Assembly: GCA_965248145.1 (NCBI GenBank)
Contig: OZ252091.1
Span: 2,626,649 to 2,690,648, forward strand
Source of the DNA: Gammaproteobacteria bacterium
GTDB taxonomy: Bacteria; Pseudomonadota; Gammaproteobacteria; Eutrophobiales; Eutrophobiaceae
DNA: 64,000 bases
Direction of reading: 5' to 3'
The notes under the pieces were generated by a model that was not told the origin of the DNA, searched no databases, and was given only the letters and a program-made list of their open reading frames with translations. Within the stretch, counting starts at the first letter, position 1. Every line of letters starts with the position of its first letter. Position numbers and translations under genes: made by a program. Positions 42,512 to 59,579 of the stretch are shown piece after piece.

Positions 42512-42513
42512 TC

Positions 42514-42783
42514 CTACGCTGCGTGACTCCGCGCCTCAAGATCGGCGAAAAGCTCCTTGGTGGAATCAAACCGTCTCAGGCTTTCCGCGGGTTCTTCCAG
42601 GGCTGCGATGGTGTCAGCATTGGGTATGCAAACATCAAATGGCAACCCCTTACGCAGGACCAATTGACTTAGCGCCATACGGATAAACTCTGTGGGTTTC
42701 AGTCCAAGTTGAGAGAGCACGGCTTCGGCTTGGGCTTTCAGTTCCGGTTCGACTCGGATTTGCATCTGTCTGGTTCTGGTCAT
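42514..42783 (-). CDS. dinJ: Type II antitoxin DinJ/RelB family.
   Basis: 89 aa, with a ribbon-helix-helix N-terminus MQIRVEPELKAQAEAVLSQLGL. It is 2 nt from the toxin gene. Confidence 0.75.
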   Translation of the reverse strand: MTRTRQMQIRVEPELKAQAEAVLSQLGLKPTEFIRMALSQLVLRKGLPFDVCIPNADTIAALEEPAESLRRFDSTKELFADLEARSHAA

Positions 42784-42892
42784 AGTGATACCTTGTCTTG
42801 TTTTTGTCTGATTATAGTCTGAACGATTTTGCTACCATTTGCAATACATATTGTCATAAGGTTCTCCCGCGTCCGGCAAAAATAGTATCTTT

Positions 42893-43010
42893 ATTGTTTT
42901 ACCCAGCAAAGAAGGCGATTATTCGCTGGCATGGCATAATCGTGTTGTATATACAGGCCTACTGCATTTGCCAATTGCTCAACGTCTTCAAAGTTCCTGA
43001 TGCCACTTTC
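42893..43010 (-). pseudogene. Duplicated 3'-terminal fragment (~118 bp) of the DUF938 methyltransferase gene.
   Basis: Nearly identical to 44683-44800, which is the real 3' end of CDS 44663-45277. It is flanked by REP sequences. Confidence 0.6.
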
Positions 43011-43323
43011 GGGATGGAGTTCTAGGCACGAGTTCCAGGGACACAATATTTAATTTTGCTATTCTGTCAGTATGATCATCCTGGCATTGAGAGGGCGTTG
43101 GGCCGAGTGGTGATAAAGAAAAAATAGGCGCAATAAAACGAATTAAGTATTGTGTCCCTGGAATTCCGGACCGTTACAGATCGAAGATGTGGTTGTTTCC
43201 GCGTTGCTGTTAAGCGCTTTCGTCGGTTTGGTATTTTATGTACGGTAAGATATTATTGATATATTTGATATATAAGATATCAAATGCTATAATCTTTCCC
43301 AAGTGATATCAGGAGGATGGCTT

Positions 43324-43560
43324 ATGACCGATATTCTAATTCGAAACATTGATAATCAATTAGACAAGGCATTAAAAATCAGGGCAATACAACATGGCCG
43401 AACCCGTGAAGCCGAAATCAAGTTTATCTTGAAGGCCACGGTTTCCCGGAGGCCTGAAAAACGCTCACTGGCTGAGGTCTTAATGGATATTCCCAAGCTG
43501 GATGTCGATGTAGACAATTTGTTTAAACGACCTGCCGGTTCCTCCCGCAATATGGATTAG
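43324..43560 (+). CDS. Ribbon-helix-helix antitoxin (FitA/VapB-like).
   Basis: MTDILIRNIDNQLDKALKIRAIQHGRTREAEI is a typical RHH N-terminus. It lies upstream of, and 7 nt from, a PIN toxin gene. Confidence 0.6.
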   Translation: MTDILIRNIDNQLDKALKIRAIQHGRTREAEIKFILKATVSRRPEKRSLAEVLMDIPKLDVDVDNLFKRPAGSSRNMD

Positions 43561-43567
43561 GTATGCC

Positions 43568-43993
43568 GTGTATTTGTTGGATACCAATGTAATATCGCAA
43601 TTCACCAAACGACAGCCAAATCCCGGCGTCACGGCATTTATAAAGGAAGCTGATGATGCAGAATCTTCTCTCTATTTATCCGTTATAACCATCGGCGAGA
43701 TTAACAAGGGCATTGTCAGGCTGACTCGTTATAACGACCTCCAACAAGCAGAAAAGCTAAGACAATGGTATAAGCAGTTGAAGATCGATTTTGCAGATTT
43801 TTTATTACCGATAGACGTGGACACAACGGTGATATGGGGAGAGGTTCTGGCTGCAACAGACGATACCAATGCTATCGACAAGCTCATTGCGGCAACGGCT
43901 TTACAATATGGTTTAACATTGGTTACACGCAATATTGATCACCTGATTGGTACGGGCGCCAAGTGTGTCAACCCATTTATCCCGGCAGAATAA
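43568..43993 (+). CDS. vapC: PIN-domain ribonuclease toxin (VapC/FitB-like).
   Basis: MYLLDTNVIS...D...TRN blocks of the PIN domain. GTG start. Confidence 0.8.
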   Translation: MYLLDTNVISQFTKRQPNPGVTAFIKEADDAESSLYLSVITIGEINKGIVRLTRYNDLQQAEKLRQWYKQLKIDFADFLLPIDVDTTVIWGEVLAATDDTNAIDKLIAATALQYGLTLVTRNIDHLIGTGAKCVNPFIPAE

Positions 43994-44518: not shown

Positions 44519-44662
44519 GGAAACTTTGATTTATTCAGAGTTTCCTACGGTACAAGGAGGTACCGTCAAAATCGATTGGGAGTTCTGGGGAGACAATACT
44601 TAATTCTGTAAATCAATGGAGGCAGACTTGCTAGAATTAAGTATTGTCTCCCCAGGAACTCA

Positions 44663-45277
44663 TCAATTTCGTCGTTTTTGTTTTACCCAGCAAAGAAGGC
44701 GATTATTCGCCGGCATGGCATAATCGTGTTGTATATACAGGCCTGCTGCATTTGCCAGTAGTTCAACGTCTTCAAAGTTCCTGATGCCGCTTTCAGGATT
44801 ACTTTGTTTCAGCCATATATCAAATCTCGCATTGCTGTCGCTGGTATAGGCATTGTTGTAATTGAACGGGCCATAAAGCACGAGCAAACCATTATCGGGT
44901 AGCAGCTGCCCTACTCCGGCGATCATGGCCTTGACTGAGTCCCACCCCATAATATGTATCGCATTGGCGGAAAACACGGCATCTACTTTTAACTTTGACC
45001 AATACGCCTGGGTAACATCCAGTATGAGGGGTAGAGGCGTATTGGCTAAGTTTGCCTCACTCAACCATAATTCGATTCCTGCATGATTCTCCTGCAGGTC
45101 ACTGCTGTGCCAGATCAGGTGCGGTAATTTCTCTGCGAAATAAACAGCGTGCTGCCCGGTACCGCTGCCTATCTCCAGAACTGCCTTACTGCCAGCGAAC
45201 AATACTTCAATAATCTCAAGAATCGGTTGCCGATTGTTATCACAGGCAACGGAATACGGTTTGTTTGACATAAACAA
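44663..45277 (-). CDS. Class I SAM-dependent methyltransferase, DUF938 family.
   Basis: VLEIGSGTGQHAVYFAEKLP glycine-rich SAM motif. Length 204 aa. Confidence 0.7.
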   Translation of the reverse strand: MFMSNKPYSVACDNNRQPILEIIEVLFAGSKAVLEIGSGTGQHAVYFAEKLPHLIWHSSDLQENHAGIELWLSEANLANTPLPLILDVTQAYWSKLKVDAVFSANAIHIMGWDSVKAMIAGVGQLLPDNGLLVLYGPFNYNNAYTSDSNARFDIWLKQSNPESGIRNFEDVELLANAAGLYIQHDYAMPANNRLLCWVKQKRRN

Positions 45278-45757: not shown

Positions 45758-48088
45758 TTAAAATGAAAGGCGCACGCCGAATATACCGGAACGTCCCGGT
45801 AACGGCGCCAGTTCTTTTACAAAAGACGTATGCCGGCGTATCTCTTCATCAAGCAGGTTGCTGGCGCTGGCAAACAGGGTAACATTATTGCCGGCCTGAC
45901 TTAGTCGGTAGCTGGCATAGAGGTTCAACAAGTCATAACCATCGGTAGGCGTTTCAAACAGCGCGGTGTCATTCTGTTTATTTACACGGGTATAACTCAG
46001 GGTCGCATACCAGGGACCCTGAAAATAAGTCAAGCCGGCGCCAAACCGCCAGGGAGTAATACGCGGCAGGTTGACATTATCAGAACGCTTACCTTCCACA
46101 TAATCTGCCCATAAACGTATATCCAGCGAGCCACTTTCGCCTTCCAGGGCATGTACGACTCCTTCCAGCTCAAAACCCATGAACTCCGCATCGTCCTGGA
46201 CCTGGGCAACGAGCAAGTGGACGCCATCCTCGTCCGGGTCCCGGATACCGGCCAGGTCGCCGGCGAAATCATCATGCACCCAGTCAGCGATGCCATCCTC
46301 GTTCAGGTCCTGCTCCTTCAGGAATATGAAATCATCAATCCGGTTATAGAATAAATTGACCGTGAGGGTGAGCCTCCCCGTCGCTTTCCGCCAGTAGAAA
46401 TCAATATTAGTAGACTTTTCCTTGCTCAGCTCAGTATCGCCATACTCAAACGTCGTTGTCGCGAGATGCGGACCTGCAGTATACAACTCCTCCAGAGACG
46501 GCGCCCGTTGCGCATGGGTGGCGACAAGACCCAGTTCATAACCGTCGCGGTAGTCCCAGTTCAGGCCGCCGGAGATGCTGAACAGGTCATGGCTGGTTTC
46601 CCCGCCGTTATCAGCGCTGGTGTCCTGATATTCATATCTGGCGCCGAATTCCATGTGCCAGTTCCCCATGTCACCTTTTTCCAACAAGAACGCGGCAATG
46701 GACTCCAACTCTGAGGGCGGGACAAAGTCTTCTTCGCCTATCGCGGCAAAATCCTTGTAGTGATACTGCAGACCGACGGCCCCTTGCCAGCCACCGAGGG
46801 GGTGATGCACAATCTCGACGCGGGCTTCCATCTCATTATTGTCAAAGGCCACACCTACGTTGCCGTCGGCTTCCACTTCATCATGATGATAGTCGTTGTA
46901 TGACGAGCGCGTTTTGATCCGGTGTATGCCGATAAAAGGATCATATAAGGACGCCTCGAAGTCATAACGTGTCTGCCCCATGTCTATCCGTGGGCGGCCT
47001 TCTCCTCCATGCCCCCCTTCTTCCTCGTGATGTCCCTCTTCCTCATCATGCCCTTCTTCCTCATGATGTTCCTCTTCATCATCATGATCTTCTCCCTCAT
47101 GGAAATCAATTCCATCCAGCAGATCTGTTTCATCATCATGATGGTGGTCTCCCAGAATGCCATAGTTGTTGTCAAGTCGGCTCACGGAAAAGCCGATGAA
47201 CCCGCGTTCACCGATCCAGGATGCCCCTGCTGCCACACTTTCCGTTTCGATACTGCTGTTTTCCAGTACGCCTTTCTCCATCTCATCATCCGGGTCCCTG
47301 TCCAATTCGGCGAACCCGGGAATTTTGTAGTCGTCGGTATGACGTTTCATACCGTCGATGTGAAAGGCGAAATTCCCTGCTCCGACGCTGAAGCTTCCGC
47401 CGCCGTTCACACCATCGTTGACGGTTTCATATTGTAGCGATATATCGGCCTGCAGGTCTTCCGGGACATATTTGGGAATGCGATCATTAACGACGTTGAC
47501 CACGCCGCCACTGGCGCCACTGCCAAAAAGCAACGTGGCAGGGCCACGAAAAATCTCAATCTGCCGGGCAAACGCAGGCTCCGTAGGTACTGCATGGTCA
47601 GCGCCTATATTGGCCACGTCCATGGTACTGATGCCATTTTCGAGCACGCTTACCCGACTGCCGGCCAGACCGCGAATGACGGGACGTCCTACCGCTGCAC
47701 CGAAATCACCGGAGCTCACGCCCAGCTCATTGGCAACCGCCTCTCCAATATTATGGATGCTACGGCTTTCGAGTTGTTTTTTTGTCAATACCTGGGCAGG
47801 TCGCGCCATGTGTTCATCTATATCACCCAATGGGTCGGCAGTGACGATTATCTCTTCCATATACTCATGACCAGCCGATGTGTGGGTATGACCCCCCGGT
47901 GTAAGCGAACGCTTGGGCGGTGTATGGGTATGACTGGCCGGTGTGTGGGCGTGCTCATCCTCCGCAGGCACGCTGGCAGCCGGGTCGTGCGCATCGCCGG
48001 CAACTTCATCGGCAAATGAAAACGATGCATGGATAACCACGACGATGGTCAACGAGGCTATACCTATTAATCGTAATGAATCAGGCAT
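45758..48088 (-). CDS. TonB-dependent receptor with His-rich N-terminal extension and a His/Glu/Asp-rich surface loop (ZnuD-like metal-uptake receptor).
   Basis: Plug and barrel blocks. N-terminal HAHTPASHTHTPP...GGHTHTSAGHE, and an internal loop HHHDDETDLLDGIDFHEGEDHDDEEEHHEEEGHDEEEGHHEEEGGHGGEG. Confidence 0.8.
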   Translation of the reverse strand: MPDSLRLIGIASLTIVVVIHASFSFADEVAGDAHDPAASVPAEDEHAHTPASHTHTPPKRSLTPGGHTHTSAGHEYMEEIIVTADPLGDIDEHMARPAQVLTKKQLESRSIHNIGEAVANELGVSSGDFGAAVGRPVIRGLAGSRVSVLENGISTMDVANIGADHAVPTEPAFARQIEIFRGPATLLFGSGASGGVVNVVNDRIPKYVPEDLQADISLQYETVNDGVNGGGSFSVGAGNFAFHIDGMKRHTDDYKIPGFAELDRDPDDEMEKGVLENSSIETESVAAGASWIGERGFIGFSVSRLDNNYGILGDHHHDDETDLLDGIDFHEGEDHDDEEEHHEEEGHDEEEGHHEEEGGHGGEGRPRIDMGQTRYDFEASLYDPFIGIHRIKTRSSYNDYHHDEVEADGNVGVAFDNNEMEARVEIVHHPLGGWQGAVGLQYHYKDFAAIGEEDFVPPSELESIAAFLLEKGDMGNWHMEFGARYEYQDTSADNGGETSHDLFSISGGLNWDYRDGYELGLVATHAQRAPSLEELYTAGPHLATTTFEYGDTELSKEKSTNIDFYWRKATGRLTLTVNLFYNRIDDFIFLKEQDLNEDGIADWVHDDFAGDLAGIRDPDEDGVHLLVAQVQDDAEFMGFELEGVVHALEGESGSLDIRLWADYVEGKRSDNVNLPRITPWRFGAGLTYFQGPWYATLSYTRVNKQNDTALFETPTDGYDLLNLYASYRLSQAGNNVTLFASASNLLDEEIRRHTSFVKELAPLPGRSGIFGVRLSF

Positions 48089-48160
48089 TGAACAAAATCC
48101 TCGTCAGTCGAGCGGAGAGATAGTCGAATTTATCTTCTCACAAGCACAAATAGCACGAAT

Positions 48161-49135
48161 TCAGTCGGTCGAGCGCACAGGGGCGACCAGGTGAGCAAAA
48201 TGGTGATCTTCAGTGCATCCCTCCAGTGACTTTTCCACCTGAAGGGTAATATGGCCGATACCGAAATCATGGGAAACAATCTCCCGCAGGCGCAAACGCA
48301 GGTCTTCCATGTCATCCGGGTAGTCCGGATCGATGAGGACGTGCGCGGTGAGCGCCTCGTTGCCTGGAGAGAGTGTCCAGACGTGGATGTCATGGACGAG
48401 GGTGACGCCTTCCACCGCTTCCAGTTTGCTGCAAAGATCATACACGTCAATATGTTCGGGCGTACCCTCGAGCAATACGTGAACGACCTTTGCCAGCAGG
48501 CGCCAACTGCTGATAAGTATGAGAAGAGCAATGATCACACTGGCAATGGGGTCGGCAAGCGTCCAGCCGAAAACCAGGATAAGAGTACCTGAAACAACGA
48601 CGCCCACCGACCCCAGCAGGTCCGCGATAACATGCATAAAGGCACCCTCAACATTGAGGTTATGCTCGGAAGAACCATGGAGGATCCAGGCTGCGGCGAT
48701 ATTGACGCCAAGACCGATGATGCCTATGCTCAGCATCAACTCGCCTTTTACCTCAGGTACGGATGTGAAGCGGTCATAGGCCTCGACTATCACCCAGGCC
48801 GCGATTAGCCAGAGGGCCAGTGCATTCAGCAAGGCTGCCAGTATCTCAAGCCGGTGATAACCAAAGGTGCGTTGCACGGAGAAAGGTCGCTCGGCAAACA
48901 GCATGGCGACCAGGGCCAGTGCAATGGTTGCCGCGTCGGTAAGCATGTGTCCCGCATCAGCGAGCAGCGCCAGACTGCCGGACAGCACACCGCCGATAAC
49001 CTCAACGAACATAAAACCGGCGATCAAAATAAAGGCAGCGATCAGGCTCCGCTTGCCGGCATTGCGCAACTCATGGGAATGATCATGTTTGCCCGGACCA
49101 TGGTGACCATGGTGGCTGTGACTATGACCTTTCAT
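48161..49135 (-). CDS. Cation diffusion facilitator family divalent-metal efflux transporter (CzcD/ZitB-like).
   Basis: His-rich N-terminus MKGHSHSHHGHHG, six TM segments with the CDF signature, and a C-terminal cytoplasmic domain. Confidence 0.85.
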   Translation of the reverse strand: MKGHSHSHHGHHGPGKHDHSHELRNAGKRSLIAAFILIAGFMFVEVIGGVLSGSLALLADAGHMLTDAATIALALVAMLFAERPFSVQRTFGYHRLEILAALLNALALWLIAAWVIVEAYDRFTSVPEVKGELMLSIGIIGLGVNIAAAWILHGSSEHNLNVEGAFMHVIADLLGSVGVVVSGTLILVFGWTLADPIASVIIALLILISSWRLLAKVVHVLLEGTPEHIDVYDLCSKLEAVEGVTLVHDIHVWTLSPGNEALTAHVLIDPDYPDDMEDLRLRLREIVSHDFGIGHITLQVEKSLEGCTEDHHFAHLVAPVRSTD

Positions 49136-49983
49136 ACCCAGATCCCAATCGCTGCCATACTGGCCAGGCCAACGAATATCAGCGCGAACTTGAATATGCG
49201 ATCCGTATCATGCGAAGGCATTGCCACGTCATCGTCCCCGAGTAACGAACTCCGTACGAAATGCGCAATGCGGTCATCGATCCTGGACATCTCAGCATTG
49301 ATGATATCCAGGATGGCTATGTAAATAAAGGTCCCTGCAGCCAGCGCGTTGAAACTCCCTTCGATCAACAACGCGGCTCGCCCTTCAAAAAAGCCGGAGG
49401 CCACCGTACCGAGCACGATCCCCAACGGCGTCATCAGGACAAAGATAGTCAAGACTGTCCATAAGCGTTTCCTGTCAGCGCCTGAGGCATGCACGCTGAC
49501 CATCAGGGCAAAGGCAGCTGATCCCTTGTGGAACAGGATGGCTAGCATGACCAGCAAGGAAGCAGCCACTTCAGCCTCAAGCCCAAGGGCGATGCCGGCG
49601 ATAATGGAGTGGATAGACAGTACCACAAGCAGAATTAAAGGGTAGATGGGCTGGTGAGTCTCCTCGCCCTGCCCCGGATCGAGCGTACGGTTGGTTTCGA
49701 ACAGAACACGGTCGATAAGCAGCAGCACGAGCACGCCGACTGCCGCCAACAACGGCGCAAGCGGGTAGTCGATCAACTCCTCAAGCGCTTCGCCGGCTTC
49801 AGGTAGCAGGTGAATGAACCCGGCGCCGAGAAAGATACCGCCTGCCAGGGCATTGCCCATCGACATAAAGCGGCGGCTTGTGTCGTGACGGGCAACCAGG
49901 AGCGGGATGATACCTCCGACGATACCCATAACGAGAATCGCTAAAGCGGCAACGACCTTGATCGCAAATAATGACGTGATCAT
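49132..49983 (-). CDS. ZIP-family metal cation transporter (ZupT/GufA-like).
   Basis: Eight TM segments with the HSIIAGIALG...HKGSAAFAL ZIP motifs. It overlaps the CDF gene by 4 nt. Confidence 0.7.
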   Translation of the reverse strand: MITSLFAIKVVAALAILVMGIVGGIIPLLVARHDTSRRFMSMGNALAGGIFLGAGFIHLLPEAGEALEELIDYPLAPLLAAVGVLVLLLIDRVLFETNRTLDPGQGEETHQPIYPLILLVVLSIHSIIAGIALGLEAEVAASLLVMLAILFHKGSAAFALMVSVHASGADRKRLWTVLTIFVLMTPLGIVLGTVASGFFEGRAALLIEGSFNALAAGTFIYIAILDIINAEMSRIDDRIAHFVRSSLLGDDDVAMPSHDTDRIFKFALIFVGLASMAAIGIWV

Positions 49984-50049: not shown

Positions 50050-50225
50050 TCCGACGCCGCTCGTTAGTTCTGGGTAGTTCTGGGGACACGGGGTAGTTCT
50101 GGGGACACTAGTTCTGGGGACACAATACTTGGGTAGTTCTGGGGACACAATACTTAATTTCCAATTAGTTCTGGGGACACAATACTTAATTTCCAATTAG
50201 TTCTGGGGACACAATACTTAATTTC
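50050..50225. repeat. Array of 6 direct REP-like units (TAGTTCTGGGGACAC[AATACTTAATTTCCAAT]) immediately upstream of the RAYT gene.
   Basis: Direct reading. The same REP consensus (GTTCTGGGGACACAATACTTAATT) occurs singly or in inverted pairs at about 43030, 43140, 44585, 44640, 50910, 51800-51920, 52365, 56000 and 56130. Confidence 0.75.
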
Positions 50226-50239
50226 GGTATACTGTTAAT

Positions 50240-50908
50240 ATGGCAAGACTGACAAGGATCGTTCTACCCGGTTATCCCCACCATGTGACCCAGCGGGGCA
50301 ACCGTCGCCAGGATGTATTTTTTTGTGACGGCGATTTGCAGGCTTATCTGACTCTACTCAAGCAATGGTGCGCCAGGGAGTCGGTGCAGGTCTGGGCGTA
50401 CTGTCTGATGACCAACCACGTCCATCTGATTGTCAAACCGGAAGAAGGTTCCAACCTTAGCCGGGCCATCGGGGAGACACACAGGCGTTACACAAGGATG
50501 ATAAATTTTCGGGAACAATGGCGCGGCTATTTGTGGCAGGGTCGGTTTGCTTCCTTTGTGCTGGATGAACCGTGGTTGCTGCAGGCGGTTGCGTATGTGG
50601 AATATAATCCGGTGGCGGCGGGGATGGTAGCTCGGCCCTGGGATTATCGTTGGAGTAGCGTCCATGCCCATTTGGCTGGGGAGGACTCTCTGGGGATAGT
50701 GGAGGTAGCTCCGTTACTTGATTTAGTTGGGGGCGACTGGCAGGCCTACTTGAGTTCGTACAAGGTAGATGGGGACGGGAACTTTGCAACCCATGAGCGC
50801 ACGGGCAGACCTTTGGGGGATGAGGGATTTATTGACAGGATTGAGAGTGCGTTGAGCCGGGTGGTGAGAAAGAAAAAACCGGGGCCAAAACAACGGCAGG
50901 ATAATTAA
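50240..50908 (+). CDS. REP-associated tyrosine transposase (RAYT, IS200/IS605 Y1 HUH family).
   Basis: The HUH motif MTNHVHLIV and a downstream catalytic-Tyr region. Length 222 aa. It is flanked by REP arrays. Confidence 0.8.
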   Translation: MARLTRIVLPGYPHHVTQRGNRRQDVFFCDGDLQAYLTLLKQWCARESVQVWAYCLMTNHVHLIVKPEEGSNLSRAIGETHRRYTRMINFREQWRGYLWQGRFASFVLDEPWLLQAVAYVEYNPVAAGMVARPWDYRWSSVHAHLAGEDSLGIVEVAPLLDLVGGDWQAYLSSYKVDGDGNFATHERTGRPLGDEGFIDRIESALSRVVRKKKPGPKQRQDN

Positions 50909-50999
50909 GTATTGTGTCCCCTGAATTAATTAAAACTATAGTACCTGATAATACAGAATTTTCTTGAAATTATAACACCTAGTATTATATATTGATTGT

Positions 51000-51416
51000 A
51001 TGAGTAATGGCATGGAAAGCCCAAAAACCAGGATTTTCAAGAACAAGCGGTTTTGTCGCTTCGCCCGGAAGGAGGGAATTGAGGACGCTGACGTGTGTGA
51101 GGCGATCAGCAATGCCGATAAAGGGCTGATAGATGCCGACCTCGGTGGTGGCCTGATCAAGCAAAGGATCGCGGGATCTAACAAAGGAAAGTCAGGTGGA
51201 TACAGGTCGATTATCCTGTTTCGCTCCAGCGATAAGGCTTTCTTCGTGTACGGTTTCGCGAAGAGCGAGCGAGACAACATTAAGAAAGATGAACTGATAG
51301 GCTTCAAGGATCTGGCGGATGAAATGTTTGGTTATGGCGAGTCCGCACTTGCCAAGGCCCTGAAGAGCGGAGCAATCGTAGAGGTAAAATGCAATGAAAA
51401 AGAATTATCGAAGTGA
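51000..51416 (+). CDS. Type II toxin, RelE/HigB-like (toxin-first module).
   Basis: 138 aa with the ...KSGGYRSIILFRSSDKAFFVYGFAKSERDNI... core typical of HigB-2/RelE-fold toxins. It is followed by an overlapping HTH antitoxin gene. Confidence 0.5.
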   Translation: MSNGMESPKTRIFKNKRFCRFARKEGIEDADVCEAISNADKGLIDADLGGGLIKQRIAGSNKGKSGGYRSIILFRSSDKAFFVYGFAKSERDNIKKDELIGFKDLADEMFGYGESALAKALKSGAIVEVKCNEKELSK

Positions 51417-51711
51417 CGTCCTCGGTGCGATCCATGAGACTGCCTTGGATCTCCATGACGCTGGCGTCATGGACAAGCGCACGCTACGTAAATTCGACAA
51501 TATGTGCCTGACCCCGGTGCGTACAATGAATCCGGAGGAAATTCGTGCGCTTCGCAGGCGTGAGCATGTGAGTCAAGCCGTCTTTGCGATATACCTGAAC
51601 GTTTCCAAGGGAGTGGTCAGCCAGTGGGAGCGCGGTGAGAAGCATCCTGCCGGAGCGTCTCTCAAGCTCCTGTCCCTGGTTCAGGAGAAGGGGTTGGATG
51701 CTATCGCATGA
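51394..51711 (+). CDS. HTH XRE-family antitoxin (HigA/NadS-like).
   Basis: 105 aa. The C-terminal HTH VSQAVFAIYLNVSKGVVSQWERGEK is classic for COG2944-type antitoxins. It overlaps the toxin gene by 23 nt. Confidence 0.65.
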   Translation: MKKNYRSDVLGAIHETALDLHDAGVMDKRTLRKFDNMCLTPVRTMNPEEIRALRRREHVSQAVFAIYLNVSKGVVSQWERGEKHPAGASLKLLSLVQEKGLDAIA

Positions 51712-51754
51712 CCTGCCCCCCTACGCTGTTGACGGGCCAATTTACGGGGAGGAG

Positions 51755-51930
51755 GTCACGGGTGGTGAGAAAGAAAAAACCTGGGCCAATACAACGGCAG
51801 GATAATTAAGTATTGTGTCCCCATAATTTTTGCATAATTTTTGACGGCAGGATAATTAAGTATTGTGTCCCCATAATTTTTGGTGTCCCCATAATTGCCA
51901 GTATTGTGTCCCCAGAATTGTTCCAGAATT
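51755..51930. repeat. Degenerate copies of the RAYT 3'-end plus REP units.
   Basis: CGGGTGGTGAGAAAGAAAAAACCTGGGCCAATACAACGGCAGGATAATTAAGTATTGTGTCCCC matches the end of the RAYT CDS (50860-50925) and is then repeated. Confidence 0.6.
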
Positions 51931-52006
51931 GATTTATATCGGCTTCTTAAAACGTATTAACCAAGCCGATTTTTGATGGCTGAGTTCATAGTGCTATTAT
52001 GCAGAT

Positions 52007-52333
52007 ATGTCCGAAATCCTGAAGAATCTACCCGTGGGTAGCTATGCTGTAGTATTCCCGTCGATTAGCAGCGGCGTCGATGAAGGGGGACACGAAAAAA
52101 TGCTTGCTGAATTGTACGGTCGTGTCCAGGATATAGAGGGTTTCCTGGGTCTGGAAGCTGCCTCAGACAGTCCATTCAAACTTGCTGTTGCATATTTTGA
52201 TTCTCTTGAGTCCATAAATACCTGGAGACAAAATAGCGAGCATATTGCTGCCAAGAACAAAGCCCGTTCCACCTGGCTGGAAGACTGGCAGATAAGAATT
52301 TGCAAAATTGAGAATATCTACGGAAAATCGTAA
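52007..52333 (+). CDS. Small ferredoxin-fold protein, possibly antibiotic-biosynthesis-monooxygenase (ABM)-like.
   Basis: 108 aa. Weak similarity to ABM/Dabb-fold stress proteins. Confidence 0.35.
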   Translation: MSEILKNLPVGSYAVVFPSISSGVDEGGHEKMLAELYGRVQDIEGFLGLEAASDSPFKLAVAYFDSLESINTWRQNSEHIAAKNKARSTWLEDWQIRICKIENIYGKS

Positions 52334-52403
52334 CTGTTTTCTGCTCAAGTCGGAGTTTTGGAGTTCTGGGGGAGTTCTGGGGACACAATTATTCATTTCC
52401 AGA

Positions 52404-55958: not shown

Positions 55959-56278
55959 TCGGGGCGTAAGCTGAAGTTGAATCCACCTTCATTTATGATA
56001 ATTCATCGAATTCTGGGCGAATTCTGGGGACATAATACTTAATTCGTTTTTCGAGCCTATTTTTTCTTTCTCACACCCGACCCAACGCTCTCTCAAGACC
56101 AGGATGACCATACTGACAGAATGGCAAAATTAAATATTGTGTTCCTAGAACTCTAAAACTACATTAAAACACAATATAATCTATTTTTCTTTCCTTTTTA
56201 TGCTTTTCTTAGTAGTACTATATTAAAATTCATGATATTCTCTAAAAACGTTATCAATCTGAATTTTGATATAGTTAG

Positions 56279-57073
56279 ATGAGTAATCAGCCTTCAAAAA
56301 GACAACAGCGATTAGCGGCACTATTACGCGCAACATCCGGCACAATCCGAGTATCTGATGCTATGCGGATTCTGGGTGCTGACCGGCAACATGCATCCAG
56401 ATTGCTGGCGGGATGGCATAAACAAGGAGTTATCCGGCGCGTTGCACACGGTTTGTACGTTCCTGTCCAGCCATCTGCGCTAGGGCAAACCCAGGTGCTT
56501 GAAGACCCATGGGTGCTGGTGCCGGAGTTATACACGCCAGGCTACATCGGTGGTTGGAGTGCCTTGGAACACTGGGAGCTGACGGAGCAGCTTTTCAGGT
56601 CAATCTGTGTACTTACCAATAAGCGGGTCGCCTATGGTGCAACCACACATCAAGGTGTTAACTTTTTTATCAAATATGTTGCTGAAAGGCATTTGTTTGG
56701 CACAAAAACCATATGGCGAGAAAATGCGAAGATACAGATTTCAGACCCATATAAAACACTGTTAGATTGTATCGATCATTTGGACTTGGGTGCAGGTTTG
56801 CAACATGTAACAGATTGCTTGATCGAATTTACACGGGTGTTCGACAAACCTGGCGATCTTGATGCTTTGCTGAACTACGCTATTCAATTCAATAATGGTG
56901 CGTTGTTTAAAAAACTGGGTTATCTGGCTGAAACGCTTGAGTTCAATCCTTCTTTTATCAATGCATGCCGAGAACGCATAACATCGGGTTATGCCACTCT
57001 CGATAAAAAAGCTGAGAATAATCGATTGGTTACAAGGTGGAATTTATGGGTGCCAGGAGATAGGACGAAATGA
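56279..57073 (+). CDS. Type IV TA antitoxin, AbiEi family (transcriptional regulator).
   Basis: 264 aa with an AbiEi_4-type N-terminal wHTH (...IRVSDAMRILGADRQHASRLLAGWHKQGVIRRVAHGLY...). Confidence 0.65.
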   Translation: MSNQPSKRQQRLAALLRATSGTIRVSDAMRILGADRQHASRLLAGWHKQGVIRRVAHGLYVPVQPSALGQTQVLEDPWVLVPELYTPGYIGGWSALEHWELTEQLFRSICVLTNKRVAYGATTHQGVNFFIKYVAERHLFGTKTIWRENAKIQISDPYKTLLDCIDHLDLGAGLQHVTDCLIEFTRVFDKPGDLDALLNYAIQFNNGALFKKLGYLAETLEFNPSFINACRERITSGYATLDKKAENNRLVTRWNLWVPGDRTK

Positions 57074-57108
57074 TTGGAAAGGATGAAATTCTGGCATTTG
57101 CCGATGAG
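57071..57108 (+). pseudogene. AbiEii-type nucleotidyltransferase toxin gene, first ~13 codons (MIGKDEILAFADE), interrupted by the IS21-family insertion. It resumes at 59710 (TGLTPNVAEKD...) and is then truncated.
   Basis: Joining the two flanks across the IS gives MIGKDEILAFADETGLTPNVAEKD, a typical AbiEii N-terminus. The frame then diverges and runs into the convergent SRAP gene. Confidence 0.45.
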
Positions 57109-57288
57109 TGCATATTCCAGATGAAACCTGCCACTAATTCCATAGCAAGCCTGCCACCCATTCCACGCGAAAGCTGCCACCCATTCCAGAGCAAGTCTGC
57201 CACCCTGTAAAGCAGGATTAGGGAGACCTGTCGACGCAGGATAACATCACGGTATCCTGAGCTTTTCTCAACCAGGGGAGGAGTTCAG

Positions 57289-58830
57289 ATGCCAGCTAAG
57301 AGGTTATCCATGCGCAAGATAAAAGAAGTACTTCGCCTGAAATGGGCAAACCATTGCAGTAACCGCCAGATCGCCAGGATCTGCAGTATCAGCCGTCCCA
57401 CCGTGGCTGAATATTTACTACGGGCACAAACGGCCCAGCTTGGCTGGCCACTAGCGCCAGAGCTGGATGATGGTGAGTTGGAACAACGCTTATTCCCCGC
57501 GACACCCAACCTGCCTGCCAGTGCACGCGGGGTGCCGGATTGGCCCGGCGTCTATCAAGACATGAGAGGCAAGAGCGTCACCCTGTTCCTGTTGTGGCAG
57601 GAGTATCGGGCAGGGTACCCGCAAGGGTATCAGTACAGTTGGTTCTGTCAGCACTATCGCGACTGGTTGAACAAACGGGACCCGGTGATGCGTCAGCACC
57701 ATCGCGCCGGTGAGAAGTTGTTCGTGGACTATGCCGGCCAAACCATCGGCGTGGTTGACAGCAGCACCGGTGAAATCCGTGATGCCCAGGTCTTTGTGGC
57801 CACGCTGGGCGCCTCCAACTATACCTATGCGGAAGCGACCTGGACGCAGACATTACCGGATTGGATAGCTTCCCATCAACGGGCCTTTCAGTTTATTGCG
57901 GGCGTGACCGAGGTCGTGGTCCCCGATAATTTACGCGCCGGGGTATCCAAAGCCCACCGTTACGAGCCGGACATCAATCCGACTTACCAGGACATGGCTG
58001 CGCATTACAACGTCGCCGTGGTACCTGCCCGTGTCAGGCGGCCCAGGGACAAAGCCAAGGTCGAAGTTGCCGTACAGGTAGTGGAACGTTGGATCCTGGC
58101 GGCGCTTCGCCGGCATACATTCTTCTCACTCGGTGAACTCAACCAGTGTATTGGACAACTGCTGACAGAGTTCAATGAACGGCCCTTCCAGAAATTACCG
58201 GGTTGTAGAAAAAGCGTGTTTGAAGCAGTGGATAAACCCGCACTGAAACCACTACCGACCAAACCCTACCAATACGCCGAGTGGAAAAAGGTGCGGGTCC
58301 ACATTGACTACCATGTCGAGGTCGATGGCCATTACTACTCGGTACCTTATACGCTGATCAAACAACAACTCGAGGCACGTATGACCCACTGTACGATTGA
58401 ATGCTTCCATAAAGGCCAGCGGGTGGCCAGTCATCCTCGCTCCCGGATAAAAGGGCGGCATACCACGGTGAACGAACATATGCCGACAACGCACCGGCAA
58501 TATGGTGACTGGTCGCCGCAACGTTTGACTGCCTGGGCAGAGAAGATGGGACCGGCCACTGTCAACGTGGTGACCCACATCCTTTCGGCCAGAGTACACC
58601 CGCAACAGGGTTACCGCGCCTGCTTAGGGATCTTACGTCTGGGTAAGGCCTATGGTGAGGCACGATTGGAAGCCGCCTGCCAACGGGCCGGACAACTCGG
58701 CACCTACCGCTATAGAAGTATTGAATCGATCTTGAAACACCGTCTGGAGAACCAACCCCTCCCGGCACAACAAGAACAGAACCTACCCCAGGACCACGGC
58801 AATATCCGTGGTGCTGATTATTATCAATAA
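57289..58830 (+). CDS. istA: IS21-family transposase IstA.
   Basis: 513 aa with an N-terminal HTH (MRKIKEVLRLKW...) and a DDE integrase core. Confidence 0.9.
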   Translation: MPAKRLSMRKIKEVLRLKWANHCSNRQIARICSISRPTVAEYLLRAQTAQLGWPLAPELDDGELEQRLFPATPNLPASARGVPDWPGVYQDMRGKSVTLFLLWQEYRAGYPQGYQYSWFCQHYRDWLNKRDPVMRQHHRAGEKLFVDYAGQTIGVVDSSTGEIRDAQVFVATLGASNYTYAEATWTQTLPDWIASHQRAFQFIAGVTEVVVPDNLRAGVSKAHRYEPDINPTYQDMAAHYNVAVVPARVRRPRDKAKVEVAVQVVERWILAALRRHTFFSLGELNQCIGQLLTEFNERPFQKLPGCRKSVFEAVDKPALKPLPTKPYQYAEWKKVRVHIDYHVEVDGHYYSVPYTLIKQQLEARMTHCTIECFHKGQRVASHPRSRIKGRHTTVNEHMPTTHRQYGDWSPQRLTAWAEKMGPATVNVVTHILSARVHPQQGYRACLGILRLGKAYGEARLEAACQRAGQLGTYRYRSIESILKHRLENQPLPAQQEQNLPQDHGNIRGADYYQ

Positions 58831-58847
58831 ACCTGAAGGAGAGCGCG

Positions 58848-59579
58848 ATGTTACACCATCCCACCCTGGAGAAATTAACCACCCTGAAATTCACCGGCAT
58901 GGTCAAAGCCCTGACGGAGCAAACAGCCTTACCCGACATTGAGCAACTGAGCTTTGAGGAGCGGTTAGGATTGCTGGTTGACCGGGAACTCACCGAGCGG
59001 TATGACCGCCGCTTGCAGACCCGCTTGCGCAAAGCCCGGTTAAAACAACAGGCCTGCATTGAAGATATTGACTACCGCCATCGCCGCGGTCTGGATAAAT
59101 CACTCTTCACTCGCTTGAGTCAGTGCCAGTGGGTGAAAGAGCGCCTCAATATCCTCATCACCGGTCCGACCGGTGTCGGCAAGACCTGGTTGGCCTGTGC
59201 CCTGGCACAAAAGGCCTGCCGGGAAGGTCATACGGCGCTCTACCTGCGCCTGCCACGCTTACTGCAGGAACTCCCCATTGCCAAAGGTGATGGTAGTTAC
59301 TCTAAACGGATGGCCGCACTGGCCAAAACCGACGTCGTGGTACTGGATGACTGGGGCCTGGCCAAACTTATTCCAGAACAACAGCGTGATTTACTCGAGC
59401 TACTGGAAGACCGACATGGCACCCGCTCTACTTTGGTCACCAGTCAATTACCTGTCGATAAATGGTACGATATCATCGGCGACCCCACCTTGGCAGATGC
59501 CATCATGGACCGACTGATCCATAACGCATACAAAATCAATTTGAAAGGAGAATCCATGCGAAAACAAAAATTAAGTTGA
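58848..59579 (+). CDS. istB: IS21-family helper ATPase IstB.
   Basis: Walker A GPTGVGKTWLA and Walker B VVVLDDWG. Length 243 aa. Confidence 0.9.
   Translation: MLHHPTLEKLTTLKFTGMVKALTEQTALPDIEQLSFEERLGLLVDRELTERYDRRLQTRLRKARLKQQACIEDIDYRHRRGLDKSLFTRLSQCQWVKERLNILITGPTGVGKTWLACALAQKACREGHTALYLRLPRLLQELPIAKGDGSYSKRMAALAKTDVVVLDDWGLAKLIPEQQRDLLELLEDRHGTRSTLVTSQLPVDKWYDIIGDPTLADAIMDRLIHNAYKINLKGESMRKQKLS

What the first reader, a model, noticed from the sequence alone, without database searches (positions are those of the whole stretch)
50050..52400. REP-associated tyrosine transposase (RAYT) embedded in arrays of its cognate REP elements, with a toxin-first HigBA-like module inside the REP field
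Six direct REP units (TAGTTCTGGGGACAC...) precede the HUH-motif RAYT gene (50240-50908). Downstream, the last ~65 bp of the RAYT CDS plus a REP is copied at least twice (51755-51875), and a reverse-orientation copy sits at 55990-56100. Single or paired REPs with the same consensus are dispersed from ~43.0 to ~56.2 kb. A RelE/HigB-like toxin gene and an XRE-HTH antitoxin gene sit between the RAYT gene and its duplicated 3'-end/REP units. That placement suggests REP/RAYT activity has shaped this accessory region, and that the TA module may stabilise it.
Basis: partly seen in the sequence, partly recalled or inferred. Interest (0 to 1): 0.55.

Follow-up and report, generated by a model that had tools for sequence, protein, structure and literature searches.

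The report
TIRYT transposase with inverted-repeat arms
The gene is a single-strand-DNA (HUH/tyrosine) transposase of the little-studied TIRYT type, flanked by 25-base inverted "arms" rather than true REP hairpins and accompanied by small gene-less copies of itself; the neighbouring toxin-antitoxin pair looks like an incidental neighbour.

Summary
A 222-aa Y1 HUH transposase gene (50240-50908) is preceded by seven direct repeat units and followed by copies of its own 3' end. A HigB-2/HigA-2-like toxin-antitoxin pair lies between the gene and those copies.

The label needs correcting.
- The repeat unit is not a palindrome and has no conserved GTAG.
- It is a 25-nt arm (AGTTCTG-GGGACACAATACTTAATT) that flanks the gene in inverted orientation and carries the GGGGWSAS motif.
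- The protein is 57% identical to the Geobacter TIRYT GSU2396 and only 23-28% identical to classical RAYTs.

This is therefore a TIRtron (Di Nocera 2013; TnpA_Y1 subclass 2.1; RAYT Group 1), a known but uncharacterised kind.

Other results:
- Three 135-nt internally deleted copies share one deletion breakpoint, so they form a MITE-like family.
- One 23-bp-stem hairpin dimer is present.
- The exact 18-nt arm core occurs in about 90 species assemblies from at least 15 phyla.
- Truncated arm copies anchored at the outer end ("stutter") flank arms in many of those lineages.
- Homology with other genomes stops exactly at the arms.
- A toxin-antitoxin module lies next to a TIRYT gene in only 4 of 20 contexts, and none shares DNA with this one.

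The parts
50065..50133 (+). Four truncated copies of the left arm (10, 19, 15 and 25 nt). All start at the outer boundary TAGTTCTG and end at different inner positions ('stutter').
   Evidence: the same pattern occurs at 20 of 138 arms from other genomes, against 4 of 138 on the inner side
50134..50197 (+). Two identical 32-nt tandem units, each holding a complete 25-nt arm (50135-50159 and 50167-50191)
   Evidence: (family D1, 100% identical)
50199..50223 (+). Gene-proximal left arm, AGTTCTG-GGGACACAATACTTAATT. It ends 16 nt before the ATG.
   Evidence: homology with L129 and L130 starts at 50198-50201
50206..50233 (+). Promoter-like site GGGACA-16-TATACT. The -35 lies inside the arm and the -10 ends 6 nt before the ATG, which would give a leaderless mRNA. 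This is an inference.
   Evidence: 9/12 consensus match; an nATACT-like hexamer at the same distance in L119, L017, L068 and the MITE copies
50240..50908 (+). TIRYT gene: 222-aa Y1 HUH endonuclease/transposase (H60-V-H62, W99-Q100, Y119-VEY-N123-P124)
50903..50927 (-). Right arm (reverse complement AATTCAG-GGGACACAATACTTAATT). It overlaps the TAA stop codon.
   Evidence: (I10); homology with L129 and L130 ends at 50921-50927
50964..50993 (+). Promoter-like site of the toxin-antitoxin operon (TTGAAA-18-TATATT, 10/12)
51000..51416 (+). HigB-2-like RelE-family toxin gene (138 aa from the first ATG; the gene caller starts it at 51012)
   Evidence: PF06296, 1e-45, profile positions 1-120 of 120; HigB-2, E 0.004
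51394..51711 (+). HigA-2-like HTH antitoxin gene (105 aa). It overlaps the toxin gene by 23 nt.
   Evidence: (HTH_3), (HigA-2, 3e-6)
51759..51828 (+). 5'-truncated copy of the element's right end: the last 50 nt of the CDS plus the arm. It is 94% identical to 50858-50927, and the arm's outer heptamer is AATTATG.
   Evidence: (D9)
51844..51930 (+). Further right-end copies, all anchored at the outer end: 51844-51882 (15 nt of CDS plus arm), 51883-51896, 51900-51919 and 51923-51930
   Evidence: (D2, D7)
52352..52397 (+). Solo arm (52373-52397, inner part diverged) preceded by two truncated outer copies
   Evidence: (D14)
43016..43165 (+). MITE-like copy A (43031-43165): left arm, leader, ATG plus 11 nt, last 69 nt of the CDS, right arm. 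A truncated outer copy precedes it (43016-43029).
   Evidence: I1, I9, D5, D8; -24.8 kcal/mol, z -4.9
44581..44659 (.). Hairpin dimer: two inverted arms with a perfect 23-bp stem and a 25-nt loop. Both arms carry the same C-to-G variant (GGGGAGAC).
   Evidence: I16; -28.7 kcal/mol, z -9.3
56008..56152 (-). MITE-like copy B (56020-56152, reverse orientation) with a truncated outer copy at 56008-56019
   Evidence: (I1, I4)
42888..43015 (+). 128-nt duplicate (93% identical) of the 3' end of the DUF938 gene. The other copy is at 44672-44799. The two copies bracket the segment MITE A - FitA/PIN - lumazine-binding gene - hairpin dimer.
   Evidence: (D3)

Best explanation
**What it is (shown).** 50199-50927 is a TIRtron. 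It is a 729-bp unit made of a TIRYT gene (a Y1 HUH single-strand DNA endonuclease/ligase of the RAYT superfamily) between two 25-nt arms in inverted orientation. The left arm ends 16 nt before the ATG. The right arm overlaps the stop codon. The other repeats in the region derive from this kind of unit:
- a 135-nt internally deleted MITE-like family, with three copies that share one breakpoint;
- a short arm dimer that folds into a long hairpin;
- solo arms;
- truncated copies anchored at the outer end.

**How it probably works (inferred).** The inference is by analogy with TnpA_REP and IS608 TnpA.
1. On single-stranded DNA, two inverted arms pair into a stem of about 25 bp.
2. TIRYT binds the stem and nicks at its foot, on the 5' side of AATTCYGGGG. 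Y119 becomes linked to the 5' end of the arm.
3. Strand transfer then moves arm-bounded units, either the gene-carrying unit or the small ones in trans, without a target duplication.
4. If the free 3'-OH is extended for a short distance before the enzyme reseals the nick, a partial arm copy starting at the outer boundary is left outside the full arm. This would explain the seven-unit array at 50065-50223, the nested right-end copies at 51759-51930, and the same pattern in unrelated phyla.

**The toxin-antitoxin pair.** The HigBA-2-like operon has its own promoter. It is an unrelated accessory module lying between the right arm and older right-end copies. It is not part of the mobile unit.
For: **Identity of the protein**
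- Pfam Y1_Tnp hit.
- 57% identity over the full length to TIRYT GSU2396, 40-45% to three other TIRYTs (pca 3049, bbt 5382, aba 2776) and 33-35% to two more (sml 4509, hch 1378) from the Di Nocera alignment, against 23-28% to RAYTs.
- The AlphaFold2 model (pLDDT 84.7) matches 4ER8 TnpA_REP best (E 7.6e-8, TM 0.74), then the IS608 and ISDra2 transposases.
- HUH, WQ and Y-x3-NP are invariant in 40 homologues.
- The arm contains GGGGACAC, which fits the published TIR motif GGGGWSAS.

**A discrete unit**
- DNA homology with L129 (86%) and L130 (84%) runs from 50198/50201 to 50921/50927 only, and the genomic neighbourhoods are different.
- One identical 222-aa homologue, P0041 (66% identical to the window protein), sits in three different contexts.

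**Non-autonomous derivatives**
- The three MITE copies have the same deletion junction, 89% mean identity, unrelated flanks and no target duplication.
- A differently deleted derivative occurs in a related genome, L068.

**Arm pairs**
- 74 of 148 arms have an inverted partner. The gaps cluster at 1-37 nt, 48-203 nt and 729-956 nt.
- The dimers fold strongly; single arms do not.

**Cleavage polarity**
- Outer-anchored partial copies occur at 20 of 138 arms, against 4 of 138 on the inner side, in many taxa. They also occur at both ends of L147 and L149.

**Recent activity**
- In 10 contigs (five metagenome assemblies) carrying the 85%-identical homologue at one syntenic locus, the flanking arrays differ. 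Hairpins are present or absent, and 246-295-nt right-end copies occur in some contigs.

**The toxin-antitoxin pair is separate**
- It has its own promoter-like site.
- It has no DNA homologue in any other locus.
- A TA module is adjacent in 4 of 20 contexts.
Against: - No TIRYT has been tested biochemically. Only two papers in the library mention the name. Cleavage site, polarity and the single-stranded substrate are therefore inference.
- The stutter could come from polymerase slippage at the G runs or from hairpin-stalled replication, with no enzyme involved. Many truncated copies end in or just after GGGG.
- The 85%-identical homologue sits at one syntenic locus in at least 10 contigs from five metagenome assemblies. 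That fits a vertically inherited, largely immobile gene as described for RAYTs.
- In this window the 70-nt right-end copy is 830 bp from the full right arm and has a different outer heptamer. It was therefore not made in place from the resident arm.
- The genome-wide copy number in this genome could not be counted. Arms were seen only at 43.0-56.2 kb and at about +66.2 kb within about 80 kb.
Confidence: 0.8

Rival explanations
1. Classical REPtron. The repeats are REP hairpins with a 5' GTAG, and the gene is a canonical RAYT that multiplies them.
For: - The fold and catalytic motifs are shared with TnpA_REP.
- The gene is flanked by its repeats in inverted orientation.
- GTAG can be read at three junctions of the left array.
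Against: - The unit does not fold.
- GTAG arises only where a copy ending in G abuts TAG. It is absent from the MITE copies, the right arms and the 144-arm consensus.
- NCBIfam REP_Tyr_transpos scores 70.6, below its cutoff of 80.
- Identity to RAYTs is 23-28%, against 57% to a TIRYT.
Confidence: 0.04
2. A domesticated, immobile TIRYT. The gene is a vertically inherited host gene. The arms are structural or regulatory DNA (terminators, recombination hot spots), and their copies spread by recombination and slippage rather than by transposition.
For: - The close homologue occupies one syntenic locus in at least 10 contigs from five metagenome assemblies.
- Published work finds low copy number and mostly vertical inheritance for RAYT groups.
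- Arms lie at junctions of diverged duplicated gene fragments, as expected for recombination break points.
- Homologues are rare on plasmids (27 of 72,556 records) and almost absent from viral contigs.
Against: - An identical protein occurs in three unrelated contexts.
- Homology breaks exactly at the arms in different neighbourhoods.
- A deletion derivative with a single breakpoint is present in three places with unrelated flanks.
- Many homologues sit alone on contigs of about 1 kb, as repeats do in assemblies.
- Bertels et al. single out Group 1 as one of the two most IS-like RAYT groups.
Confidence: 0.15
3. The toxin-antitoxin pair is functional cargo. The HigBA-2-like operon was captured between two right arms, travels with the element and stabilises it or the island.
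For: - The operon lies between the full right arm and right-end copies.
- TA modules also lie next to TIRYT genes in L130 (a truncated 73-aa RelE-like ORF plus an MqsA-type antitoxin, and a BrnTA pair), in Skermanella pSM-2 (MazEF) and in Iodobacter pl1 (HipBA).
- A second TA (FitA/PIN) lies between MITE A and the hairpin dimer.
Against: - The TA families differ between loci, and no locus shares DNA with this TA.
- Sixteen of 20 contexts have no TA within about 2 kb.
- Homology with other TIRtrons stops at the right arm, before the TA.
- The island also holds an IS21, an AbiEi-like gene and a YafQ/RelB pair, so co-location in an accessory region is enough to explain it.
Confidence: 0.08
4. The stutter arrays come from replication slippage or hairpin-stalled synthesis alone, with no role for the transposase.
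For: - Many truncated copies end within or just after the GGGG run, and arms are often preceded by G residues. This gives short direct repeats for slippage.
- Tandem 32-nt units are typical slippage products.
Against: - The partial copies are strongly one-sided: 20 outside against 4 inside.
- They always begin at the same outer nucleotide.
- Their lengths run from 10 to 295 nt, which simple slippage between G runs does not predict.
- Extra G residues lie at some junctions.
Confidence: 0.3

Closest known systems
TIRYT / TIRtron (Di Nocera, De Gregorio and Rocco 2013, PMC3733652), e.g. Geobacter sulfurreducens GSU2396
   Same: - Y1 HUH protein of about 220 aa with the same N-terminal MARxxRxxxPGxPHHVTQRGN, NHVH, WQGRF and Y-x3-NP motifs and the HERTGRPLG...KKGKPGPK tail; 57% identity.
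- The gene lies between long inverted repeats that carry GGGGWSAS, at a fixed short distance and overlapping the gene's 3' end.
- Copies of the repeats occur as singles, dimers and clusters.
   Different: Nothing contradicts membership. Added here:
- the exact 25-nt arm and its boundaries;
- presence of the arm core in at least 15 phyla;
- the deletion-derived MITE family;
- the outer-anchored stutter.
TnpA_Y1 subclass 2.1 (Quentin et al. 2018, PMC6006769), equivalent to RAYT Group 1 (Bertels et al. 2017, PMC5581495)
   Same: - NHVH, W[EQ] and the Y-x3-NP signature.
- Length close to the subclass median of 238 aa.
- No canonical REPs.
- Wide and patchy taxonomic distribution.
- Group 1 is one of the two most IS-like RAYT groups.
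   Different: - The Y motif is YVEYNP, whereas the subclass consensus is YIELNP or Y[IV]HLNP.
- Pfam finds no HTH-like C-terminal domain (Bac_DnaA_C, HTH_23 or HTH_28) in this 222-aa protein.
- Quentin et al. found no REP-like sequences near 2.1 genes by their REP-directed searches, although they cite Di Nocera's TIRs and the GGGGWSAS consensus for this subclass. Here the arms and their dimers are obvious.
REP/RAYT and REPIN systems (E. coli TnpA_REP, PDB 4ER8; Pseudomonas REPINs)
   Same: - Same fold and catalytic motifs.
- A single gene flanked by inverted copies of its repeat.
- Short non-autonomous inverted dimers that fold into hairpins and lie between genes.
   Different: - The half-site is not itself a palindrome.
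- There is no GTAG foot.
- The stem is about 25 bp, formed only by two arms.
- The gene-carrying unit itself seems to move.
- Derivatives keep pieces of the gene.
- The same core sequence crosses phyla, whereas REPs are lineage-specific.
IS200/IS605 family (IS608, ISDra2)
   Same: - Y1 HUH chemistry.
- No target duplication at the MITE copies.
- Small size.
   Different: - The Y motif is Y-x3-NP, not Y-x3-Q.
- There are no subterminal hairpins with asymmetric left and right ends.
- The ends are true inverted repeats.
- There is no tnpB.
- The protein is 70 aa longer.
Vibrio cholerae HigBA-2 toxin-antitoxin system (PDB 5JA8, 5JAA)
   Same: - Toxin gene first.
- RelE-fold toxin of Pfam PF06296.
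- Antitoxin of about 104 aa with a C-terminal HTH.
- Overlapping genes.
   Different: - Sequence similarity is low (toxin E 0.004, antitoxin E 3e-6).
- Activity was not tested.

Membership tests
TIRYT / TIRtron (Di Nocera 2013) | Y1 HUH protein with a catalytic Tyr that is closer to the published TIRYT sequences than to RAYTs | tested here: met
   BLASTP against the sequences in Additional file 5 gives 57% to gsu 2396, 45% to bbt 5382, 43% to pca 3049 and 40% to aba 2776, all full length. E. coli b228 gives 23% and pfs 3939 gives 28%, both partial.
TIRYT / TIRtron (Di Nocera 2013) | Gene flanked by long terminal inverted repeats instead of GTAG REPs | tested here: met
   Arms at 50199-50223 (+) and 50903-50927 (-) are 92% complementary over 26 nt (I10). 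A single arm does not fold.
TIRYT / TIRtron (Di Nocera 2013) | The TIR carries the motif GGGGWSAS at a conserved short distance from the CDS | tested here: met
   GGGGACAC lies at 50205-50212. The arm ends 16 nt before the ATG here and in L119, and 15-16 nt before it in L129 and L130.
TIRYT / TIRtron (Di Nocera 2013) | TIR copies elsewhere in the genome as singles, dimers or clusters | tested here: met
   Thirteen full arms plus truncated copies lie at 43.0-56.2 kb, and one more element lies 2.2 kb beyond the window. The whole genome could not be counted.
TnpA_Y1 subclass 2.1 (Quentin 2018) | Key motifs NHVH, W[EQ] and YIELNP or Y[IV]HLNP | tested here: inconclusive
   N59-H-V-H62 and W99-Q100 match. 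The Y motif is Y119-V-E-Y-N-P, which has the class 2 signature but not the exact subclass consensus. No subclass HMM was available.
TnpA_Y1 subclass 2.1 (Quentin 2018) | C-terminal extension with HTH-like similarity (Bac_DnaA_C, HTH_23, HTH_28) | tested here: not met
   Pfam reports only Y1_Tnp at residues 15-122. The model shows five short helices at 141-205. Quentin et al. describe this domain as heterogeneous in subgroup 2.1.2.
Classical REP / RAYT (Nunvar 2010; TnpA_REP) | The repeat is a 20-40-nt imperfect palindrome that folds on its own | tested here: not met
   The 32-nt unit gives -0.5 kcal/mol with z +0.68, and 145 of 200 shuffles fold as well or better.
Classical REP / RAYT (Nunvar 2010; TnpA_REP) | Conserved 5' GT[AG]G tetranucleotide at the foot of the hairpin | tested here: not met
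   The units begin TTAG, GTAG, GTAG, CTAG, GTAG, TTAG and TTAG. The MITE arms begin GAGT, GAAT or TAGT. The consensus of 144 arms is ggAATTCCG with no GTAG.
Classical REP / RAYT (Nunvar 2010; TnpA_REP) | The protein reaches NCBIfam REP_Tyr_transpos (NF047646) | tested here: not met
   70.6 bits against a cutoff of 80
Classical REP / RAYT (Nunvar 2010; TnpA_REP) | High copy number of the repeat (more than 100 per genome) | not testable with these tools
   Only about 80 kb of the 3.77-Mb contig could be read.
REPIN (Bertels and Rainey 2011) | Two inverted repeat units separated by a short spacer that form a hairpin, non-coding and multi-copy | tested here: met
   44581-44659 has a 23-bp perfect stem (-28.7 kcal/mol, z -9.3). 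About 28 such dimers with loops of 1-37 nt occur in other genomes. The units themselves are not REPs, so this is a resemblance in architecture only.
IS200/IS605 | TnpA with Y-x3-Q, subterminal hairpins and no inverted repeats | tested here: not met
   The Y motif is Y-x3-NP. The ends are inverted repeats. Foldseek places IS608 and ISDra2 behind TnpA_REP.
HigBA-2-type toxin-antitoxin | Toxin-first operon with a PF06296 RelE-fold toxin and an antitoxin with a C-terminal HTH | tested here: met
   PF06296 at 1e-45 over the full profile; HTH_3; nearest solved structures are HigB-2 and HigA-2. Toxicity and neutralisation were not tested.

The most novel reading that the evidence does not exclude
The outer-anchored partial copies may be footprints of a nick-extend-reseal reaction by TIRYT at the foot of the arm stem. 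They are 10-32 nt long in the left array, 8-70 nt at the right end here, and 246-295 nt in relatives, and they occur at arms from many phyla. If so, they reveal the enzyme's cleavage site and polarity from sequence alone. TIRtrons would then be active single-strand transposons that use one nearly universal 25-nt end across at least 15 bacterial phyla and that also duplicate adjoining DNA, including host gene fragments (128 nt here; 185-298 nt in relatives).
Probability: 0.3. Interest if true: 0.6.

Novelty: new member of a known kind. Interest (0 to 1): 0.4.

Why it matters
TIRYTs (subclass 2.1, Group 1) are the largest branch of the RAYT superfamily. An exhaustive search found 13,061 cluster representatives at E<=1e-10. 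No member has been studied experimentally.

This locus, read together with its relatives, gives that branch a concrete and testable anatomy:
- a 25-nt arm with defined boundaries;
- a gene-carrying unit whose homology stops exactly at the arms;
- small derivatives that must be moved in trans;
- a one-sided stutter that points to where the enzyme cuts.

It also warns annotators that "REP-associated tyrosine transposase" is the wrong label for these genes. For this genome in particular, it explains the patchwork of the 43-56 kb accessory region.

Tried and rejected
- **Rfam:** scanning 42.0-57.5 kb gave only two sub-threshold plant microRNA matches on the hairpin dimer. These are artefacts of any long hairpin.
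- **Literature:** a search for the arm sequence itself found no paper.
- **GTAG tag:** rejected, because it arises only at junctions.
- **Phage vehicles:** 12 viral contigs hold the 18-mer. Eleven are chance matches inside coding sequence without the outer heptamer. Only L142 is a real dimer.
- **Plasmid vehicles:** 27 of 72,556 records have a homologue, all below 60% identity.
- **TA linkage:** I checked 20 TIRYT contexts. These comprised gene tables from the look-up of encoding contigs, three annotated plasmid regions, and Pfam scans of 20 small neighbouring ORFs at five of eight further loci (L047 had no small ORF; the two small ORFs left at L098 and L072 were an arm-encoded ORF and a TIRYT fragment). 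Four contexts had a TA module, of different families.
- **Composite transposon:** I considered the 13-kb region bounded by the inverted MITE copies A and B as a composite transposon. I did not pursue it, because a third copy lies outside and nothing else marks the pair as a unit.
- **Mini-hairpin within one arm:** the outer AATT..G could pair with the inner CTTAATT. Five to seven of 7 positions match in most arms, but the predicted stability is nil. This remains unexplained.
- **Genome-wide count:** not possible.

Full report
**1. What is in the sequence**

The window is part of a 3.77-Mb circular contig from a metagenome assembly. At 50240-50908 lies a 222-aa ORF with a Pfam Y1_Tnp hit (E 1.2e-12).

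Upstream there are seven direct units that all begin TAGTTCTG. They start at 50065, 50075, 50094, 50109, 50134, 50166 and 50198. Their lengths are 10, 19, 15, 25, 32 and 32 nt, followed by the gene-proximal copy.

The same sequence in reverse complement overlaps the stop codon at 50903-50927 (I10). Downstream of a two-gene operon there are right-end copies of decreasing length:
- 51759-51828: 50 nt of the CDS plus the arm, 94% identical;
- 51844-51882: 15 nt of the CDS plus the arm;
- 51883-51896, 51900-51919 and 51923-51930: arm pieces.

The 18-nt core GGGACACAATACTTAATT has 14 matches at <=3 mismatches against 0.04 expected. All lie between 43038 and 56145.

**2. The repeat is an arm, not a REP**

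A single 32-nt unit does not fold (-0.5 kcal/mol, z +0.68).

The GTAG that can be read at three junctions arises where a truncated copy ending in G meets TAG. The other units begin TTAG or CTAG, and the dispersed copies begin GAGT, GAAT or TAGT.

Pairs of arms in inverted orientation do fold:
- 44581-44659 has a perfect 23-bp stem (-28.7 kcal/mol, z -9.3);
- 43025-43171 gives -24.8 kcal/mol (z -4.9).

**3. Derivatives**

The elements at 43031-43165 (+) and 56020-56152 (-) each consist of the left arm, the 16-nt leader, ATG plus 11 nt, the last 69 nt of the CDS, and the right arm.

A third copy lies 2.2 kb beyond the right end of the window (L154 6535-6668). All three share the same internal junction and have 89% mean column identity. 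Their flanks are unrelated and there is no target duplication. One deletion derivative has therefore multiplied, which is the behaviour of a MITE.

Their ends resemble the arms of a different TIRtron lineage more than those of the resident copy. A related Gammaproteobacteria MAG has a differently deleted derivative (L068) and a TIRYT pseudogene (L017).

**4. The protein**

- Catalytic motifs: HUH is H60-V61-H62, and the tyrosine motif is Y119-VEY-N123-P124, with W99-Q100. All are invariant in 40 homologues. They align with the HUH and Tyr motifs of E. coli TnpA_REP.
- Fold: the AlphaFold2 model (pLDDT 84.7) matches 4ER8 best (E 7.6e-8, target TM 0.74), followed by the IS608 and ISDra2 transposases.
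- RAYT model: NCBIfam's REP_Tyr_transpos scores 70.6, below its cutoff of 80.
- Closest named relatives: against the alignment published by Di Nocera et al. (PMC3733652, Additional file 5), the protein is 57% identical over its full length to TIRYT gsu 2396. It is 40-45% identical to three other TIRYTs (pca 3049, bbt 5382, aba 2776) and 33-35% to two more (sml 4509, hch 1378). It is only 23-28% identical, over part of its length, to the RAYTs.
- Published definition: that paper defines TIRYTs as RAYT-like genes flanked by long inverted repeats that share GGGGWSAS. GGGGACAC fits this motif.
- Other classifications: Quentin et al. equate TIRYTs with their subclass 2.1 (NHVH, W[EQ], Y-x3-NP, median 238 aa), which corresponds to Bertels' Group 1.
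- Literature: only those two works mention TIRYT in the library searched.

**5. Beyond this genome**

- I count about 90 assemblies from the record titles. They carry at least 15 phylum-level labels: Pseudomonadota, Omnitrophota, Planctomycetota, Thermodesulfobacteriota, Bacillota, Actinomycetota, Acidobacteriota, Hydrogenedentota, Elusimicrobiota, Nitrospirota, Spirochaetota, Bacteroidota/Ignavibacteria, WOR-3, Desantisbacteria, Ratteibacteria and Abditibacteriota.
- By my arithmetic a uniform-composition chance expectation for the whole collection is about 35 hits. However, 132 of 148 hits also carry the conserved outer heptamer, which chance hits lack.
- The consensus arm is gg-AATT[C/A][C/A/T]G-GGGACACAATACTTAATT. 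Conservation stops at position -8 on the outside and at +1 on the inside.
- Half of the arms have an inverted partner. The gaps are 1-37 nt (dimers), 48-203 nt (MITE-like) and 729-956 nt (full units).
- Fourteen loci encode a TIRYT homologue that is 34-75% identical to this one, next to the identical core. In this sample the DNA end is therefore more conserved than the protein. The sample was selected for an exact core, so it says nothing about TIRYTs with other ends.

**6. Evidence that the unit is discrete and mobile**

- DNA homology with L129 (86%) and L130 (84%) covers 50198/50201 to 50921/50927 only, and the neighbours are different.
- One homologue, P0041 (66% identical to the window protein), is encoded with an identical 222-aa sequence in three unrelated contexts. 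In one of them it directly follows a truncated copy of itself.
- Many close homologues sit alone on contigs of about 1 kb.
- Against this, the 85%-identical homologue occupies one syntenic site, between an OpuAC permease gene and a P450 gene, in at least 10 contigs from five metagenome assemblies. Even there the flanks differ between contigs. Dimers are present or absent between two upstream genes, next to truncated copies of the ABC-transporter gene start. Right-end copies of 246-295 nt occur in some contigs. The whole insertion is bracketed by direct duplications of 185-298 nt of the permease 3' end, which are 100% identical in L119 and 79-99% identical elsewhere.
- The window has an analogous structure. 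A 128-nt copy of the DUF938 gene's 3' end (42888-43015, 93% identical to 44672-44799) brackets the segment MITE A - FitA/PIN - lumazine-binding gene - hairpin dimer.

**7. The stutter**

Truncated arm copies that begin at the outer boundary and end at various inner positions lie just outside 20 of 138 arms in many taxa. The same probe finds 4 of 138 on the inner side. Both ends of L147 and L149 show the pattern. The seven-unit array upstream of the gene and the nested copies at 51844-51930 are the local examples.

I propose, as an inference, that TIRYT acts as follows:
1. It nicks at the outer foot of the stem formed by two arms on single-stranded DNA.
2. It stays linked to the 5' end of the arm, as IS608 TnpA does at its left end.
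3. It reseals the nick after the free 3'-OH has been extended for a variable distance.

This would leave a partial copy that starts at the boundary. Slippage at the G runs is a serious alternative.

**8. Expression**

A promoter-like site, GGGACA-16-TATACT, lies at 50206-50233. Its -35 is inside the arm, and its -10 ends 6 nt before an ATG that has no Shine-Dalgarno sequence. An nATACT-like hexamer sits at the same distance in several relatives. A leaderless transcript and autoregulation through arm binding are plausible but untested.

**9. The toxin-antitoxin pair**

- Toxin (51000-51416): PF06296 at 1e-45, covering the full profile.
- Antitoxin (51394-51711): HTH_3.
- Nearest solved structures: V. 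cholerae HigB-2 and HigA-2.
- Own promoter-like site: 50964-50993.
- The 830-bp block has no DNA homologue in any other locus fetched, and homology with other TIRtrons ends before it.
- A TA module lies within about 2 kb of a TIRYT gene in 4 of 20 contexts, and the families differ.
- The right-end copies beyond the TA carry a different outer heptamer (AATTATG against AATTCAG) and four mismatches. They probably came from another lineage, perhaps together with the TA by recombination at an arm.

I see no evidence that the TA belongs to the element or stabilises it.

**10. Verdict**

The precise identity is a TIRtron, which is a known kind, so this is a new member of it. The accompanying observations are descriptive additions and were obtained mainly from MAGs:
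- the exact arm and its boundaries;
- the spread of the arm core across phyla;
- a MITE family derived by a single deletion;
- the one-sided stutter;
- long duplications of flanking DNA.

The mechanism remains inferred.

**Limits**
- The genome-wide copy number in this genome is unknown. Arms were seen only at 43.0-56.2 kb and at about +66.2 kb within about 80 kb.
- The taxon labels are those of the deposited MAGs.

Noticed in passing
window 13880-17305 (+): A 1141-aa ORF with 73.6% G+C at 14-16 kb in a genome of about 50% G+C. The gene table lists Cadherin_5, fn3, SRCR and Calx-beta domains. It looks like a recently acquired large surface protein.
   Followed up: partly
window 42888-43015 and 44672-44799: A 128-nt direct duplication (93% identical) of the 3' end of the DUF938 methyltransferase gene. 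It brackets a 1.66-kb segment that begins with MITE copy A, ends with the hairpin dimer, and carries a FitA/PIN toxin-antitoxin pair and a lumazine-binding gene. How arm-bounded segments come to be flanked by such long duplications is unexplained.
   Followed up: partly
L119 3330-3578 and 4687-4935; also L122, L125, L121 and L120: In contigs carrying the 85%-identical TIRYT, the whole insertion (dimer plus TIRtron) is flanked by direct duplications of 185-298 nt of the upstream permease gene's 3' end. Identity is 100% in L119 and falls to 79% in L120. Duplication lengths differ between contigs.
   Followed up: partly
L120 780-1200, L121 1180-1290, L123 780-1470: An arm dimer is present between the aldehyde dehydrogenase and ABC-transporter genes in some contigs and absent in others (L119, L122). 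Where it is present, it sits between a truncated copy of the ABC gene start and a diverged (about 80% identical) full copy. In L123 the unit 'dimer plus 190-nt upstream region plus gene start' is itself repeated.
   Followed up: partly
window 52007-52333 (+); L017 6277-6620: A 108-aa ORF with only a sub-threshold match to af470-like monooxygenase lies between a right-arm array and a solo arm. Its 94%-identical homologue in a related Gammaproteobacteria MAG also lies next to arms and TIRYT pseudogene pieces, with no toxin-antitoxin pair.
   Followed up: partly
window 56279-59579: Immediately right of MITE copy B lie an AbiEi-like antitoxin/regulator gene (56279-57073), four 23-nt tandem repeats (57114-57205) and an IS21 element (istA 57289-58830, istB 58848-59579).
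   Followed up: no
window 42245-42783 and 43324-43993: Two more toxin-antitoxin pairs lie within 8 kb of the TIRYT gene: YafQ/RelB, and FitA-like RHH/PIN. The region between the nuo operon and the IS21 is an accessory island rich in addiction modules.
   Followed up: no
window 45758-49983 (-): A TonB-dependent receptor gene contains an 18-nt-period repeat (46998-47087, probably His/Glu-rich). It is followed by a CDF cation-efflux gene and a ZIP transporter gene, which suggests a metal (zinc?) uptake and efflux cluster directly upstream of the TIRtron.
   Followed up: no
144 arms from L002-L118: The outer heptamer (AATTCCG or AATTAAG) is partly complementary to the inner end of the same arm (CTTAATT). 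Five to seven of 7 positions match in 89 of 144 arms, and 10 arms are fully complementary. Predicted stability is negligible, so it is unclear whether this reflects a mini-hairpin, a dyad-symmetric binding site, or nothing.
   Followed up: partly
L119 1190-1225; L121 1075-1140: The genome carrying the 85%-identical TIRYT also has ordinary GC-rich REP-like palindromes (for example CATTCCCGGGCCAGGCCCGGAATG) in the same intergenic regions. Two unrelated repeat families therefore coexist.
   Followed up: no
one search hit list (for example P0130, P0137, P0141, P0156, P0238): Many cluster representatives closest to this protein are truncated or chimeric: they match only residues 1-130 or 40-170. 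One is a 1067-aa protein with the TIRYT domain at its N terminus. This fits frequent partial copies and possibly gene fusions.
   Followed up: no
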